Made by a program: the position numbers and the translations under genes
Notes under the pieces: model-generated
What the model was told of the DNA's origin: nothing
Seen by the model: only the letters and a program-made list of their open reading frames with translations
The model's database searches: none
In this document: piece after piece, positions 13,912 to 18,485 of the stretch
How the letters are laid out: each line of letters starts with the position of its first letter
How positions within the stretch are numbered: the first letter of the stretch is position 1
Origin: a virus
DNA: 18,664 bases
Virus genome (UHGV): UHGV-0257810
Reading direction: 5' to 3' (one strand)

Positions 13912-14397
13912 TTATCTGATGTTACTGCTACTGTTGCATGTGACTGTATTTCCAAACCCTGAATTGCAGTTTGTGTAAGTGTCAACTCGTGTTGGATAGG
14001 GTTGAGTTATAACAGGCTGTCTCGCTTTTTGCTCGATCGCTTGCATTGTGTTTACAGCCTGATAATTCAATAAAGCCTGCTGGAATGCTTGGCTTTGTGC
14101 TATTTGTTGTGCTTGTTCTTGGCTTTGTAATTGAACATAAAGATTCTGAAGCTCAAGTCTTGCCTGTGCGTCACTTATCTTGCCTTCATCGACACCTTGC
14201 CCGAGCATCTTTGCAGCAAGGACATACAGTTTAGGTGTTGGTGCTGATGCCATGCGTGAGTCGTTCTTCACACTGGCATCAAGGCAATTAGCCATATCGC
14301 TAAGCTTTTGATAGCGTTGTTCGCAACTTGCTTGATAGTCACTTACTTTTGCGCATCCAACCAGCAGAAGCGGGATAATTAACAGTGATTTTTTCAT
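13912..14397 (-). CDS. Predicted lipoprotein of unknown function (accessory, moron-like)
   Basis: Start taken at the internal Met (ATG 14397-14395) because AAGGAGAG lies 8 nt upstream and it yields a classic signal peptide with lipobox (MKKSLLIIPLLLVGC). The mature ~137 aa has a Gln-rich helical segment and a Cys-containing C-terminus. Local GC is visibly lower than the flanking structural genes. Confidence 0.7.
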   Translation of the reverse strand: MKKSLLIIPLLLVGCAKVSDYQASCEQRYQKLSDMANCLDASVKNDSRMASAPTPKLYVLAAKMLGQGVDEGKISDAQARLELQNLYVQLQSQEQAQQIAQSQAFQQALLNYQAVNTMQAIEQKARQPVITQPYPTRVDTYTNCNSGFGNTVTCNSSSNIR

Positions 14398-14454
14398 ATG
14401 GTTAACTCTCCTTAGTTTTTCACAGGATAGCATGAAGGCAATGCCATTTTAGCC

Positions 14455-14482
14455 GGAAACTAGATTTCTATGTTTCCTTTTT
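14455..14482 (+). terminator. Possible plus-orientation hairpin with T-run, overlapping the mnt stop codon
   Basis: GGAAAC (14455-14460), 11-nt loop, GTTTCC (14472-14477), then TTTTTATTATT on the plus strand. On the minus strand the hairpin is not followed by a U-tract, so it would not terminate the mnt transcript. Confidence 0.3.
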
Positions 14483-14734
14483 ATTATTGCTATACATGGT
14501 CTTAAGCGTTTCAAAAACCATTTTCTTAACCATATCAGATTGTTGTTCTGCCATACGCTCTGCATCGTCAATGTAAACGGATGCAGAGCTTTGTTTAGAC
14601 AACGATTCTTCAATCGCTGCAATTATCTCTGAGTTCAGCGATCTGTTATTCATCTTCGCACGCTGCTTAATTTTCGCGTGGAGTTCATGCGGAAGTCTCA
14701 AGTGAAACTGCGCCTCATCGTATTTGCTGTACAT
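14468..14734 (-). CDS. mnt: Mnt-like ribbon-helix-helix (Arc/MetJ family) repressor
   Basis: FHLRLPHELHAKIKQRAKMNNRSLNSEIIAAIEESL is a canonical RHH DNA-binding motif. The C-terminus AERMAEQQSDMVKKMVFETLKTMY parallels the P22 Mnt tetramerisation tail as recalled. Start chosen at ATG 14734 (GAGG 8 nt upstream, 88 aa); the first in-frame ATG at 14767 would give 99 aa. Confidence 0.85.
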   Translation of the reverse strand: MYSKYDEAQFHLRLPHELHAKIKQRAKMNNRSLNSEIIAAIEESLSKQSSASVYIDDAERMAEQQSDMVKKMVFETLKTMYSNNKKET

Positions 14735-14807
14735 CCTTGATGCCTCACCAGTTGGGTGGAATGGCATCGTAACCTACTGGATAAATACTCAATAGTACCA
14801 TTTCGGT

Positions 14808-14830
14808 ATGCAATCACATCATGGTTGCAT
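14808..14830. promoter_or_regulatory. Inverted repeat ATGCAA-N11-TTGCAT in the mnt/tailspike divergent intergenic region (candidate operator)
   Basis: Read directly: ATGCAA at 14808-14813 and its reverse complement TTGCAT at 14825-14830, about 30 bp upstream of the tailspike start and between two divergent genes. Function is not established. Confidence 0.25.
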
Positions 14831-14855
14831 CATATCATTCGTCTGGAGAAATGAA

Positions 14856-16937
14856 ATGTCAGATATCACCGCAAATGTTGTGGTAAGCATGCCTTCGCAA
14901 CTCTTCACTATGGCTCGTTCTTTTAAAGCCGTAGCCAATGGCAAAATTTATATCGGTAAAATTGACACTGACCCGGTAAATCCAGAAAACCAGATTCAGG
15001 TTTATGTAGAGAACGAAGAAGGCTCTCATGTTCCTGTATCGCAACCAATCATCATTAACGCTGCTGGATATCCGGTATATAACGGACAGATTGCCAAGTT
15101 CGTAACTGAGCAAGGCCATTCTATGGCTGTTTATGATGCGTATGGGGCGCAGCAGTTCTATTTTCCGAATGTTATAAAGTACGATCCAGATCAATTTAAA
15201 CAAGAGTTATCTAGTAATTCTGGAGCTTCATTAATAGGAACAGAGTCAGGAAAAACTGTTCAGGATGAATTGGATGAAATAGATAGAGATATTTCTCTTA
15301 ACAATATTTTATCTCATGAAAAAAATAGATTTAACTTTATCTTTTCACACTACTACAAACGTACTTTTAATAATGATTTAAGACTGCAATTACAGAGCTA
15401 TGTCGATGGGATTTATAATTTTGCCCCCAAAAGCGTATCTCTACCCAGTGGAAGATTAGTAACTATCTATACGGTAAAGGAAGGTGCCAATTCTGACCCC
15501 GGACAAGATGGTACCCCAATGCATATTGACTTCATGATTTCCGACGATAACGGGGTCAACTGGACGCAAACAGGTACTGTAGTTAATAAGGGTGTAGGTT
15601 ACGCTACATCTGAAACAATTCTATTCCTCAATAACAATGACGGGTATCTGTACTGTTTTTTCACTTCAATGAAGGGTATAACCGGATGGGGTCACGCCCA
15701 GCAAGGTACAGACCCGGACACCACATCCACCATTGAGTATTGCGTATCTAAAGACCGCGGAGAGACATGGAGCGCGCCGGTCGATATTACAGCAGCCGTT
15801 AAGCCCGCAGGTGCGTATTTTTCATCTATCGCACCGACGCAAGCAGGATATATTAATGGTAGACCAGCGATACCCTATTACTACCTTACTACTATTTCCT
15901 CCGGGATTGTAGAAGGGTATATAACTACAGATGACGATGGAAACTACATTTACGGTGGAGATGTCAGGAAAGACACCGATGTCGATACGCTAGGAACTTC
16001 TGGCGGCGAGATTGGATTTGGCAATTTCTATGATGGAACACCTTTTGCAATTGAGCGTGCTGCCGACACAACAATCAAACCGTATAAAATCGCAATACAA
16101 AAGCTATTAATGCAAGATTCTAGTGGGAAGTGGATTGTAAAAGGACAGTTCCCTACCACTGACTGCATGGCCTCTTTTTTAAGAGTTGGTCCTGATTTTG
16201 GGTTTGATAAAGATTATCTGTTTGTGGTGGCACCAATAGGATCAACAGGACAATTTGAAGGAAGGGCTAACCTTAGATTATTTGATTGCACTAACGACTT
16301 TAATAATCCTGTTGATAAGGGCATGTTATCTGTTAGTGCTGTTGTTGAAACAGGGTATAGCTCAACTGTTCTTTTATCATCCGGGGCGATGATGAGCGTG
16401 TGGAATGGGAGACAATGGACCGTCAACAACTCTATTTATACCGTAAACAGGCTTGTAGGTAATAATGTTATACCAGTACCTTTCTGTGGAACGCTTAAAA
16501 TAGTAGACACTAACAGAACTTTCTCACAGGATATATTCGTTAACGAGCGTGTTATTGGTATTGCTGACGGGATAATGTACCGGTGGACAGGATCGGATTT
16601 TGTTAGGGAAAATGCGGCGATACCATCGAAAATAAATTCAGTTGTCTCAACGCTTAACGCCGACATGGCAGACTTGTTTTATCTTGATTCATCGTCTTCA
16701 GGTTCGACATTAACCAGTATAACCGGTGGATATATAGGTAAAACAATACGTATACTGCCACTTTCATCACTTACAGAAGTTACCCTTGTAAAACAGGCAC
16801 CCGGCGTTTCTGTTAATGACAGAATAATGTACAATACGTCGCCTAGTGTTACTAAGTACAAAACAAATGGGGAGCTTATACAATTGACTAAAACTAACTA
16901 CGGATGGTATCTGGATAAATCAGCAAACAGTGTTTAA
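14856..16937 (+). CDS. Tailspike: P22-type head-binding domain fused to an Asp-box-containing receptor-binding domain
   Basis: Start at ATG 14856 with GGAGAA at 14845-14850. The N-terminus [13 protein letters not shown]...[20 protein letters not shown]...YDPDQF matches the P22 gp9 head-binding domain as recalled (first ~113 aa). Downstream sequence is unrelated to P22 and contains Asp-box motifs SDDNGVNW (15540-15563) and SKDRGETW (15747-15770). GC drops sharply just after the YDPDQF junction (~15195). Confidence 0.9.
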
Positions 16938-17091: not shown

Positions 17092-18249
17092 CTATGACAC
17101 CTTCTCATCAAGCCAATCCGCCCACCACTGCATCATTTCTCTGCGCTTATCGAGATACTGAGCATGGTTGTAAATCCCGCGCACAGAACCGCCGTTGGCA
17201 TGTGCCAGTTGCACTTCAATAGCGTCAGCAGGCCATTCGTGCTCGTTCATAATCGTGCTGAATTCATGCCTGAATCCGTGACCGCTTTCCAGACCCTCAT
17301 AGCCGATTTGTTTGATCACAAGTAGCACCGCGTTCTCGCAGATTGGCTTTTTCTTATCGTTGCGCCCGGCAAAAACAAACTCTGATACTGGTTTGGTGAT
17401 TGAGCTTAGCGTAGTGAGAAGTTCAACTACCTGGTCTGACATAGGAACTACATGAATTTTGCGTCCCTTCATCACACTGGCGTCGATGGTGATAATCCTG
17501 TTTTCAAAATCGACGTTCTTCCATAGCATAGAGCGAAGCTCTTTCGTTCTTAGGGCTGTGTAGCGTAAAGCTTTGGTCGCAATGAGCGATACGATACTTC
17601 CTGAAAATGTTGCCAGTGCTTTGTTGAATGCCGGGATCTGGTCTGCAGGAAGAAACGGGAAGTTCTTCTTGCGGTATCCCTTCATGGCGTCAGCAAGGTC
17701 AGGTGCTGGGTTATATTTAGCCCTGCCGGTGACAATAGCGTAACGGAAAACCTCGCCGCATCTTCTGCGGGCTTTGTTGGCTCGCTCCATTGCACCGCGA
17801 TCTTCGAATCTGCGGATTACTTCCAGCAGTTGCATCGGCTCAATATCCTGAATCTCAAGACCACCGATGATGGGTAAAATGTCGTCATCAAACATTTTGG
17901 CAAGTTCAGTTGCATAGCCTACTGACCAAACTTGCTTCTTGTGCTCGTACCATTCCTTGTAAATCGCACTAAATGAATTGTTGTTAGACGAAGCCTTTTT
18001 CGCCTTTACCGGATCGATGCCAACCGAGATGTCTTTCCTCGCGGTCCATGCTTTATCCCTTGCTTCCTGCAAAGTCATAAGCGGATATTTTCCGACGGTC
18101 AGGATTTTCTCCTTACCGTCAATCTTGTAGCGAAGCTGCCACACCTTTTTCCCGGATACAGGGACATAAAGGTACAGGCCATTACCATCGAGAAGGCGGT
18201 ATGGTTTTTCTTTCGGCTTTGCTGCTTCAATCTGCTTAACGGTGAGCAT
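17092..18249 (-). CDS. int: Tyrosine integrase, P4-like family
   Basis: N-terminal AAKPKEKPYRLLDGNGLYLYV arm-binding-type motif, and C-terminal HGFRHEF...VRGIYNHAQY consistent with a tyrosine recombinase catalytic region. The gene is transcribed away from the adjacent tRNA. Start chosen at ATG 18249 (MLTVKQIEAAKPK..., 385 aa); the track ORF extends to a GTG at 18285. Confidence 0.9.
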   Translation of the reverse strand: MLTVKQIEAAKPKEKPYRLLDGNGLYLYVPVSGKKVWQLRYKIDGKEKILTVGKYPLMTLQEARDKAWTARKDISVGIDPVKAKKASSNNNSFSAIYKEWYEHKKQVWSVGYATELAKMFDDDILPIIGGLEIQDIEPMQLLEVIRRFEDRGAMERANKARRRCGEVFRYAIVTGRAKYNPAPDLADAMKGYRKKNFPFLPADQIPAFNKALATFSGSIVSLIATKALRYTALRTKELRSMLWKNVDFENRIITIDASVMKGRKIHVVPMSDQVVELLTTLSSITKPVSEFVFAGRNDKKKPICENAVLLVIKQIGYEGLESGHGFRHEFSTIMNEHEWPADAIEVQLAHANGGSVRGIYNHAQYLDKRREMMQWWADWLDEKVS

Positions 18250-18410
18250 GGGTAAAAATCCGGTTGGTAAAATTATTTTATCCACTTTTTACCCGTCATG
18301 GAGTGCGGCTGTCAACGATCTGAAGCGAACCATGACGAACTGTGAATCTACGGAAGGCTTGATATTCAGGGGGTTTTGCGGACTGGTACGGATGGGAGCG
18401 AACTGATAAA

Positions 18411-18485
18411 TGGTGTCCCCTGCAGGAATCGAACCTGCAATTAGCCCTTAGGAGGGGCTCGTTATATCCATTTAACTAAGAGGAC
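18411..18485 (-). tRNA. argW: tRNA-Arg (anticodon CCU), argW-type; prophage attachment site
   Basis: Reverse complement folds as a 75-nt cloverleaf: acceptor GUCCUCU/AGGGGAC, D-stem GUUA/UAAC, anticodon stem AGCCC/GGGCU with loop CUCCUAA, T-stem GCAGG/CCUGC with loop UUCGAUU, discriminator A and CCA. Sits directly upstream of the integrase. Confidence 0.9.

What the first reader, a model, noticed from the sequence alone, without database searches (positions are those of the whole stretch)
15195..16937. Tailspike receptor-binding module carries sialidase-type Asp-box motifs instead of a P22-family beta-helix
The first ~113 aa are a standard P22 head-binding domain, and GC drops abruptly right after the YDPDQF hinge, the classic recombination joint for tailspike domain swapping. 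The new module has two Asp-box (BNR) motifs, SDDNGVNW and SKDRGETW, about 70 aa apart, which is the signature of sialidase-like beta-propellers. Characterised P22-family tailspikes (P22, Sf6, HK620) are right-handed beta-helices. At 693 aa it is too short for a K1F/CUS-3-type endosialidase with a C-terminal chaperone domain, so it may be a different propeller-type glycanase with unknown receptor specificity.
Basis: partly seen in the sequence, partly recalled or inferred. Interest (0 to 1): 0.7.

Follow-up and report, generated by a model that had tools for sequence, protein, structure and literature searches.

The report
Sialidase-fold propeller tailspike in P22-like prophage
The tailspike of this P22-like E. 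coli prophage carries a six-bladed sialidase-type propeller instead of the usual beta-helix; the module is rare, is swapped among several phage families, has an altered active site, and its sugar target is unknown.

Summary
The gene at 14856-16937 (+) encodes a 693-aa tailspike. Residues 1-113 are a full P22 head-binding domain. The YDPDQF hinge is at aa 109-114. Two Asp-boxes lie 69 aa apart, at aa 229-236 and 298-305.

The interpretation also holds. The AlphaFold2 model gives 24 strands, i.e. six four-stranded blades. All 50 Foldseek PDB matches shown carry a GH33 sialidase fold (best E 7e-17). A family profile hits GH33 sialidases by sequence (E 7e-12). No beta-helix or endosialidase signature was found.

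New points:
- Alignment to canonical sialidases places the Tyr/Glu nucleophile pair, the Asp acid/base and two of the three arginines. The FRIP arginine is Phe189 and its partner Glu is Asn517.
- This paired loss defines one clade. More distant relatives, such as Kuttervirus gp139, keep both residues.
- The module is rare: none in 5,426 complete E. coli genomes and one of 2.9 million IMG/VR contigs.
- It is nevertheless fused to at least five different virion anchors.
- The recombination joint lies at about nt 15199-15238, just after the hinge.

The substrate and host serotype could not be determined. No experimental work on this family was found. Verdict: a real feature, and a new variant of a known kind.

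The parts
14856..16937 (+). Tailspike gene: 693 aa plus stop. The mechanical ORF starts at 14808, but the ATG at 14856 with an upstream GGAG is the likely start.
   Evidence: The exact protein is in NCBI as 'phage tailspike protein [Escherichia coli]'.
14856..15194 (+). P22-type head-binding (virion-anchoring) domain, aa 1-113.
   Evidence: Pfam PF09008 covers 1-113/113, E 2e-65. PDB sequence hits include 7sg7_A ('Gene 14 protein') and chains named tail spike/endorhamnosidase and bifunctional tail protein.
15180..15197 (+). YDPDQF hinge, aa 109-114. The recombination joint lies immediately downstream, at about nt 15199-15238.
15195..15380 (+). AT-rich linker/neck (26.3% GC), aa 114-175. It includes a predicted helix at aa 135-155, modelled at low confidence as a monomer.
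15378..16439 (+). Six-bladed GH33-like beta-propeller, aa ~175-528 (24 strands).
   Evidence: AF2 model: 10-residue block pLDDT 62-96 across this region, mostly above 80 through aa ~440. Foldseek PDB matches to sialidases, E 7e-17, TM 0.72-0.77 on the target. Profile against PDB E 7e-12. hhalign to a canonical sialidase, 97.3% probability.
15540..15563 (+). Asp-box 1, SDDNGVNW (aa 229-236), in the turn between strands 3 and 4 of blade 1.
   Evidence: Ser229 is invariant across the wider family.
15747..15770 (+). Asp-box 2, SKDRGETW (aa 298-305), in the turn between strands 3 and 4 of blade 2.
   Evidence: Pfam BNR hit at aa 297-306
15420..15422 (+). Phe189, at the position of the FRIP arginine (Arg1 of the triad), in 'NFAP'.
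15495..15497 (+). Asp214, candidate acid/base.
16008..16010 (+). Glu385, the partner of the nucleophile Tyr. Invariant.
16056..16058 (+). Arg401, Arg2 of the triad. Invariant.
16263..16265 (+). Arg470, Arg3 of the triad. Nearly invariant.
16356..16358 (+). Tyr501, candidate catalytic nucleophile in the 'GYS' motif. Invariant.
16404..16406 (+). Asn517, at the position of the Glu that pairs with Arg1 (the 'LYE' motif) in canonical sialidases.
16497..16934 (+). C-terminal all-beta domain, aa ~548-693. It is conserved through the whole family, and its fold is not assignable.
   Evidence: AF2 model pLDDT 83. Only weak Foldseek hits, to phage tail beta-domains. No Pfam hit. Conserved GGYxG...R...KTxxGW..AN motifs.
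17092..18285 (-). Prophage integrase (context).
18411..18485 (-). tRNA-Arg(CCT), probably argW, beside the integrase and so the likely attachment site (context).

Best explanation
This is the receptor-binding tailspike of a P22-like (Lederbergvirus-type) E. coli prophage that lies beside a tRNA-Arg(CCT) gene.

The N-terminal 113 aa dock the presumably trimeric spike on the tail, as in P22 and Sf6. This follows from established knowledge of that domain.

Just after the YDPDQF hinge, recombination has replaced the usual beta-helix with a foreign cassette. The cassette comprises an AT-rich neck, a six-bladed GH33-like sialidase-fold propeller and a conserved ~150-aa beta-domain.

Shown here: the fold, its homology to GH33 sialidases, the position of the joint, and the occurrence of the cassette on different virion anchors.

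Inferred: the propeller is a working glycosidase or receptor-destroying enzyme. It keeps the Tyr501/Glu385 nucleophile pair, Asp214 and two substrate-carboxylate arginines (Arg401, Arg470), all invariant or nearly so down to about 22% identity. It would bind and cleave an acidic, probably ulosonic-acid-containing, O-antigen or capsule of an uncommon E. coli serotype, letting the virion reach the outer membrane.

The coupled loss of Arg1 (now Phe189) and its partner Glu (now Asn517) implies a remodelled carboxylate pocket. The specificity is therefore probably different from classical Neu5Ac exo-sialidases.

The C-terminal domain probably trimerises the spike or adds glycan binding. This last point is inference only.
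For: Fold:
- The AF2 model has 24 strands, i.e. six blades, with residue-block pLDDT 62-96 over the propeller.
- All 50 Foldseek PDB matches shown have a GH33 sialidase fold: sialidases, plus a design built on one (4j9t) and a receptor fusion containing one (6qzh). Best E 7e-17; TM on the target 0.72-0.77 for 7lbu, 4j9t and 1eus.

Homology:
- Single-sequence PDB hit to 4fj6, E 3.6e-5.
- Family profile against PDB, E 7e-12.
- hhalign to a canonical exo-sialidase, 97.3% probability over 301 columns.

Catalytic positions:
- E385, R401 and Y501 are invariant, and D214 and R470 nearly invariant, across 24 sequences that include a canonical sialidase.
- The Arg1 position is F/Y/Q and the partner-Glu position is N/H/D in the ten closest representatives. 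The 14 more distant sequences have 'YRxP'-type motifs and 13 of them have Glu. Sajous1 gp139 reads 'YRMP'.

Modularity:
- Homologs carry PF09008, PF18668 or PF03906 N-termini.
- The module is in Agtrevirus, Gamaleyavirus and Sashavirus genomes at 74-82% aa identity.
- A different E. coli prophage (T7_gp14-like protein, holin_8, GH19 endolysin context) carries it at 97% nt identity from 15237 to 16929.
- P22-like tailspike homology stops at nt 15199-15238.

Against: - No enzymatic or receptor data exist for any member found in these searches.
- The host serotype could not be retrieved.
- One of the three defining arginines is missing, so the site could be inactive or used only for binding.
- Pfam BNR_2 scores fall just under the curated cut-off: 28.9 and 31.0 bits against 31.4.
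- Catalytic equivalences rest on sequence and profile alignment, not on superposed coordinates.
- The model is a monomer, so trimer geometry is untested.
- The C-terminal domain fold is unassigned.
Confidence: 0.6

Rival explanations
1. The module is a non-catalytic, lectin-like receptor-binding propeller. It kept the sialidase fold for glycan binding but lost hydrolysis when the FRIP arginine and its Glu partner were replaced.
For: Arg1 is Phe189 and the partner Glu is Asn517. Pfam BNR_2 scores are below the curated cut-off. A published analysis notes that beta-propellers in phages may have functions beyond catalysis (PMC12491483).
Against: Tyr501, Glu385 and Arg401 are invariant, and Asp214 and Arg470 nearly invariant, from 85% down to about 22% identity. 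Such conservation is hard to explain without catalysis. From established knowledge, endosialidases are active with only two of the three arginines.
Confidence: 0.2
2. It is a classical sialidase acting on Neu5Ac itself, in a sialic-acid-containing E. coli O-antigen or capsule. On this reading the loss of Arg1 makes no difference to specificity.
For: The closest structural and sequence relatives are all Neu5Ac-type GH33 sialidases. A fragment in the same 90% cluster is named 'exo-alpha-sialidase' in NCBI.
Against: The FRIP arginine and its Glu partner are treated as defining features of Neu5Ac sialidases (established knowledge), and both are replaced in the whole clade. The module is absent from all 5,426 complete E. 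coli genomes. From general knowledge, that set should include many strains of sialic-acid-bearing serogroups such as O104 and O145. This is weak, indirect evidence.
Confidence: 0.12
3. It is a K1F/CUS-3-type endosialidase (GH58) directed against polysialic-acid capsule.
For: CUS-3 shows that a P22-type head-binding domain can carry a sialidase-superfamily propeller (established knowledge, not tested here).
Against: No Pfam endosialidase propeller, stalk or Peptidase_S74 chaperone hit. No endosialidase is among the 50 structural matches shown. At 693 aa the protein has no room for a stalk plus chaperone.
Confidence: 0.03
4. It is a right-handed beta-helix tailspike in which the Asp-box-like strings occur by chance in loops.
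For: None found.
Against: The AF2 model has six four-stranded blades, with the motifs in canonical turns. All 50 Foldseek PDB matches shown have a sialidase fold. Profile homology to GH33 is E 7e-12.
Confidence: 0.01

Closest known systems
Bacterial GH33 exo-alpha-sialidases (for example PDB 7lbu, 4fj6, 1eus, 4bbw)
   Same: Six-bladed propeller and Asp-boxes in the turns between strands 3 and 4. The alignment places the Tyr/Glu nucleophile pair, the Asp acid/base and Arg2/Arg3.
   Different: The FRIP arginine and its stabilising Glu are absent (Phe189, Asn517). Only two clear Asp-boxes are present. The propeller is fused to a phage virion anchor and to a family-specific C-terminal beta-domain. 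Identity is only about 15-19%. Pfam BNR_2 scores are just below the cut-off.
Endosialidase tailspikes of K1-specific phages (K1F; the P22-like CUS-3), family GH58
   Same: A phage tailspike whose catalytic part is a sialidase-superfamily beta-propeller. CUS-3 also joins it to a P22-type head-binding domain, and endosialidases also work with two of the three arginines. Both points come from established knowledge and were not tested here.
   Different: No Pfam endosialidase propeller, stalk or Peptidase_S74 chaperone hit. No endosialidase appears among the 50 structural matches shown. This protein keeps a candidate Tyr nucleophile. From memory, endosialidases lack one.
Kuttervirus (Ackermannviridae) tail protein annotated 'exo-alpha-sialidase', for example Salmonella phage Sajous1 gp139
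   Same: The same family: propeller plus the same C-terminal domain. Identity is 28.6% over the first 331 residues of the module and the alignment is full-length. It is reported among virion proteins by mass spectrometry (PMC10892097).
   Different: gp139 keeps the canonical 'YRMP' arginine and the partner Glu. It uses a TSP1/Gp66-type N-terminal anchor. Its receptor is also unknown.
n-bladed beta-propeller depolymerases of Klebsiella (pro)phages
   Same: A recognised but little-studied fold class of phage receptor-binding enzymes: 18% of depolymerase domains predicted in Klebsiella prophages (PMC12491483).
   Different: That class was defined by fold in Klebsiella. No sequence relationship to this family was tested. 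Here the host is E. coli and the anchor is P22-type.
Pseudomonas aeruginosa PA2794 sialidase-like 'pseudaminidase' (recalled from memory; a lead, not a test)
   Same: A sialidase-fold enzyme with a modified active site and a C-terminal domain that mediates trimerisation. This is a possible analogy for a propeller followed by a C-terminal beta-domain in a trimer.
   Different: It was not compared here. It does not appear among the 50 Foldseek matches shown, and no Pfam PF22432 hit was found on the C-terminal domain.

Membership tests
P22-family tailspike (gp9-like) | N-terminal head-binding domain (PF09008) | tested here: met
   Covers 1-113 of 113 model positions, E 2e-65. Near-identical to a solved tailspike N-terminus (7sg7_A) over aa 1-121.
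P22-family tailspike (gp9-like) | Right-handed parallel beta-helix receptor-binding domain | tested here: not met
   No beta-helix Pfam hit. The model is a six-bladed propeller, and none of the 50 Foldseek PDB matches shown is a beta-helix protein.
GH33 sialidase | Six-bladed beta-propeller fold | tested here: met
   Predicted only. 24 strands. Foldseek E 7e-17, TM 0.72-0.77 on the target.
GH33 sialidase | Asp-box (SxDxGxTW) repeats in blade turns | tested here: met
   Two motifs, at aa 229-236 and 298-305, in the turns between strands 3 and 4 of blades 1 and 2.
GH33 sialidase | Arginine triad, including the FRIP-motif arginine and its stabilising Glu | tested here: not met
   Arg401 and Arg470 are present. 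The FRIP position is Phe189 ('NFAP') and the partner Glu position is Asn517.
GH33 sialidase | Tyr nucleophile with Glu partner, and an Asp acid/base | tested here: met
   By alignment only. Tyr501 and Glu385 are invariant and Asp214 nearly invariant across 24 sequences that include a canonical sialidase.
GH33 sialidase | Score above the Pfam BNR_2 (PF13088) gathering threshold | tested here: not met
   28.9 bits for the full-length protein and 31.0 bits for the propeller alone, against a cut-off of 31.4. Homology is nonetheless supported by the profile searches.
GH33 sialidase | Hydrolysis of sialic-acid (or other ulosonic-acid) glycosides | not testable with these tools
   Needs a biochemical assay.
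GH58 endosialidase tailspike (K1F/CUS-3 type) | Endosialidase propeller, stalk and N-terminal Pfam domains, and a C-terminal Peptidase_S74 chaperone | tested here: not met
   None of these models hits at E <= 1. No endosialidase is among the 50 structural matches shown.

The most novel reading that the evidence does not exclude
The clade lacking Arg1 and its Glu partner is a previously unrecognised phage glycosidase family. On the sialidase scaffold it would cleave a sugar other than Neu5Ac, such as Kdo or a pseudaminic/legionaminic-type acid, in a rare E. coli, Providencia or Morganella O-antigen or capsule. If so, it could give a gene identity to the phage-borne Kdo-cleaving glycanases that, as I recall, were described biochemically in the 1980s-90s without a gene assignment. 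It would also define a two-arginine retaining mechanism distinct from both GH33 and GH58.
Probability: 0.2. Interest if true: 0.7.

Novelty: new variant of a known kind. Interest (0 to 1): 0.45.

Why it matters
Tailspike receptor modules decide which bacterial surface polysaccharide a phage can attack. Almost all characterised Enterobacteriaceae examples are beta-helices. The only studied sialidase-fold case known to me is the polysialic-acid endosialidase.

This cassette is a second, GH33-like sialidase-fold lineage, and it moves between podo-, myo- and siphophages. Its retained Tyr/Glu/Asp/Arg2/Arg3 set, with a coordinated loss of Arg1 and its Glu, points to a distinct sugar specificity.

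Identifying the substrate would add an enzyme class to the depolymerase toolbox for serotyping, glycan engineering and anti-capsule agents. It would also help specificity predictors, which currently perform poorly on propeller-type depolymerases (PMC12491483).

Tried and rejected
- Beta-helix with chance Asp-box strings: rejected by the AF2 model and Foldseek.
- K1F/CUS-3-type endosialidase: rejected, with no Pfam or structural match.
- Host serotype or receptor: not found. The module is absent from all 5,426 complete E. coli genomes by megablast and by blastn, so no annotated chromosome could be inspected. Contig look-ups give only the flank next to the tRNA-Arg gene. Papers on RPN242, Agtrevirus, Ackermannviridae and E. 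coli tailspike-serogroup mapping say nothing about this module.
- Fold of the C-terminal domain: inconclusive. Only weak matches (TM <= 0.45) to assorted phage tail beta-domains, and no Pfam hit.
- NCBIfam: no hit.
- GTDB species representatives: no close locus, only two weak Clostridia BNR hits. IMG/VR: one contig. Both scans depend on short peptide patterns, so these counts are lower bounds.
- Literature searches for characterised GH33-like, Kdo-specific or nonulosonate-specific tailspikes returned nothing relevant.
Full report
**Observation**

The mechanical ORF runs from 14808 to 16937 on the + strand. The ATG at 14856 has a GGAG 8 nt upstream and begins MSDITANVV, giving a 693-aa protein.
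- Pfam Head_binding (PF09008) matches aa 1-113 over the full 113-position model, E 2e-65.
- Over aa 1-121 the N-terminus is near-identical to a solved tailspike chain (7sg7_A, 'Gene 14 protein'), E 5e-66.
- YDPDQF is at aa 109-114, nt 15180-15197.
- The two Asp-box strings are at aa 229-236 (SDDNGVNW) and aa 298-305 (SKDRGETW), 69 aa apart. They are the only matches to [ST]xDxGxx[WFY] in the protein.
- The GC statement is right locally. GC is 42.5% in the head-binding part, 26.3% over 15195-15380, and 42.2% over the rest of the gene. The rest of the window is 50.5%.

**Fold**

An AlphaFold2 model of aa 114-693 was built on 20 homologs. Mean pLDDT is 76, with 10-residue block values of 62-96 across the propeller.
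- The model has 24 beta-strands between aa ~175 and ~528, i.e. six four-stranded blades.
- Both Asp-boxes fall in the turn between strands 3 and 4 of consecutive blades. From established knowledge of sialidase folds, that is the canonical position.
- All 50 Foldseek PDB matches shown carry a GH33 sialidase fold. They include one design built on a sialidase (4j9t) and one receptor fusion containing one (6qzh). The best is 7lbu at E 7e-17; TM on the target is 0.72 for 7lbu, 0.77 for 4j9t and 0.75 for 1eus.

Sequence evidence agrees with the model:
- The single sequence hits 4fj6 at E 3.6e-5.
- A nine-sequence family profile hits GH33 sialidases at E 7e-12.
- hhalign to a canonical exo-sialidase (P0021) gives 97.3% probability over 301 columns.
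- Pfam BNR_2 is just under its curated cut-off: 28.9 bits full-length and 31.0 bits for the propeller alone, against 31.4.
- No beta-helix model, endosialidase model or Peptidase_S74 model hits.

**Active site**

Canonical sialidase motifs were mapped through the hhalign alignment and a 24-sequence MAFFT alignment. That alignment includes the canonical sialidase P0021 and Kuttervirus Sajous1 gp139.

| Canonical role | Residue here | Conservation |
|---|---|---|
| Asp acid/base | Asp214 | nearly invariant |
| Glu partner of the nucleophile | Glu385 | invariant |
| Arg2 of the triad | Arg401 | invariant |
| Arg3 of the triad | Arg470 | nearly invariant |
| Tyr nucleophile ('GYS') | Tyr501 | invariant |
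| Arg1 (FRIP motif) | Phe189 ('NFAP') | lost |
| Glu that pairs with Arg1 ('LYE') | Asn517 ('VWN') | lost |

- The double loss is clade-specific. The ten closest representatives have F/Y/Q at the Arg1 position and N/H/D at the Glu position.
- The 14 more distant sequences have 'YRxP'-type motifs, and 13 of them have Glu at the partner position.
- Two lysines, K208 and K245, are invariant in the ten-sequence clade and rare outside it. K208 ends strand 2 of blade 1, just before the Asp214 loop.
- That these lysines compensate for Arg1 is my inference only.

**Anatomy beyond the propeller**

- A predicted helix at aa 135-155 lies in the AT-rich neck.
- The last ~150 aa form an all-beta domain. 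Modelled alone it reaches pLDDT 83.
- This domain is conserved in the whole family, including Kuttervirus gp139, through GGYxG...R...KTxxGW..AN motifs.
- It has no Pfam hit. Its only Foldseek matches are weak ones (TM <= 0.45) to assorted phage tail beta-domains. Its role, trimerisation or glycan binding, is unassigned.

**Context and mobility**

The window is a P22-like prophage, about 96% identical to phage IME10 over the virion genes. A tRNA-Arg(CCT) gene, probably argW, lies at 18411-18485 next to the integrase. Beyond it come genes whose Pfam families (Form_Nir_trans, MlaA, Toluene_X) fit the yfdC-mlaA-fadL neighbourhood of E. coli.

The position of the joint:
- Other E. coli P22-like tailspike genes match only up to nt 15199-15238.
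- From nt 15237 to 16929 the sequence is 97.2% identical to the tail gene of a different E. coli prophage. That prophage has a T7_gp14-like protein, a holin_8 and a GH19 endolysin nearby; it looks epsilon15-like to me, but this was not tested.
- The joint therefore sits within about 40 nt after the hinge codons.

Other carriers of the module:
- Sashavirus BDX09P1, 82% aa identity.
- Agtrevirus PC3, PH4 and RPN242, 74%, at the C-terminus of a 1,053-aa tail protein.
- Gamaleyavirus nithesis, 74%, at the C-terminus of a 1,028-aa tail protein.
- Metagenomic proteins with PF18668 or PF03906 (T7 tail-fibre) N-termini.
- Providencia and Morganella proteins at about 48%.

**Rarity**

- No hit in 5,426 complete E. 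coli genomes, by megablast or by blastn.
- One of 2.9 million IMG/VR contigs.
- No close locus in 185,579 GTDB species representatives. Both this scan and the IMG/VR scan rely on short peptide patterns, so the counts are lower bounds.
- Only 56 cluster representatives at E <= 1e-3 among 1.84 billion proteins.
- The exact protein is in NCBI as 'phage tailspike protein [Escherichia coli]'. It was seen on 8 contigs in the cluster listing and on 11 in the contig look-up. One fragment in the same cluster is named 'exo-alpha-sialidase'.

**Literature**

- I found no experimental work on this family.
[quoted passage not shown] No receptor was given (PMC10892097).
- n-bladed beta-propellers are a recognised fold class, making up 18% of predicted depolymerase domains in Klebsiella prophages. 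Their properties in phages are described as unclear, and specificity predictors do poorly on them (PMC12491483).
- Exchange of tailspike modules among P22-like, T7-like and Ackermannviridae phages has been reported for other modules (bioRxiv 10.64898/2026.05.19.726188).

**Mechanism**

*Shown:*
- A P22 anchor is joined to a GH33-homologous six-bladed propeller and a family-specific C-terminal domain.
- The recombination joint lies just after the hinge.
- Five of seven canonical catalytic positions are retained, with a coupled loss of the other two.

*Inferred:*
- The spike is a trimer, from the P22 head-binding domain.
- The propeller is an active, probably retaining, glycosidase.
- It recognises and cleaves an acidic, probably ulosonic-acid-containing, O-antigen or capsule of an uncommon serotype.
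- Its specificity differs from classical Neu5Ac exo-sialidases.

I put about 0.9 on the fold and homology, about 0.6 on catalysis, and much less on any particular substrate.

*Rivals:* a binding-only propeller (about 0.2) and a classical Neu5Ac sialidase (about 0.12). The beta-helix and endosialidase readings are effectively excluded.

**Verdict**

It is a new variant of a known kind: a sialidase-superfamily propeller tailspike that is GH33-like rather than GH58-like, with a two-arginine site. Interest is moderate, because the fold class and module swapping are already known. What is new is this specific family, its altered active site and its unknown substrate, all of which are directly testable.

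Noticed in passing
window 13912-14433 (-): A 173-aa ORF with a lipoprotein-like signal (...LLLVGC) lies between the last ejection-protein gene and the Arc/Mnt-like gene. It matches PHROG 6067 (unknown function) at E 2e-110 and has no Pfam family on record. It could be a moron or a superinfection-exclusion lipoprotein.
   Followed up: partly
window 14468-14767 (-): A 99-aa Arc/Mnt-family ribbon-helix-helix protein lies immediately upstream of the tailspike gene and is divergently oriented. This looks like an immI-type region as in P22. The best PHROG label ('partition protein ATPase') appears to be a misnomer for so small an RHH protein.
   Followed up: partly
window 17092-18285 (-) and 18411-18485 (-): An integrase with an Arm-DNA-binding domain lies next to tRNA-Arg(CCT), probably argW, which marks the prophage end. 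In a matching NCBI contig, genes with Form_Nir_trans, MlaA and Toluene_X domains follow, consistent with yfdC, mlaA and fadL.
   Followed up: partly
window 14856-16937 against the rest of the window: The whole tailspike gene, including the conserved head-binding part (42.5% GC), is well below the 50.5% GC of the virion-gene block. The low-GC character is therefore not limited to the swapped module.
   Followed up: no
L006 3545-5779 (Salmonella phage Sajous1 gp139) and the other Kuttervirus hits: A Kuttervirus tail protein found in phages isolated on O157:H7 and on Salmonella belongs to the same propeller plus C-terminal-domain family. It keeps the canonical sialidase arginine and Glu. Its receptor appears to be unreported.
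   Followed up: partly
window 16700-16937 against L007: The P22-type and 803-aa prophage versions are about 97% identical overall. Their differences cluster in the last ~60 residues (...[15 protein letters not shown]...[15 protein letters not shown] against ...SSNTKVTLVKQASGV...SSGLTQYKTNGEIIQ). This hints at a second mosaic boundary inside the C-terminal domain.
   Followed up: no
window 14859-15203 (-): A 114-aa antisense ORF lies entirely inside the head-binding coding region. It is most likely spurious.
   Followed up: no
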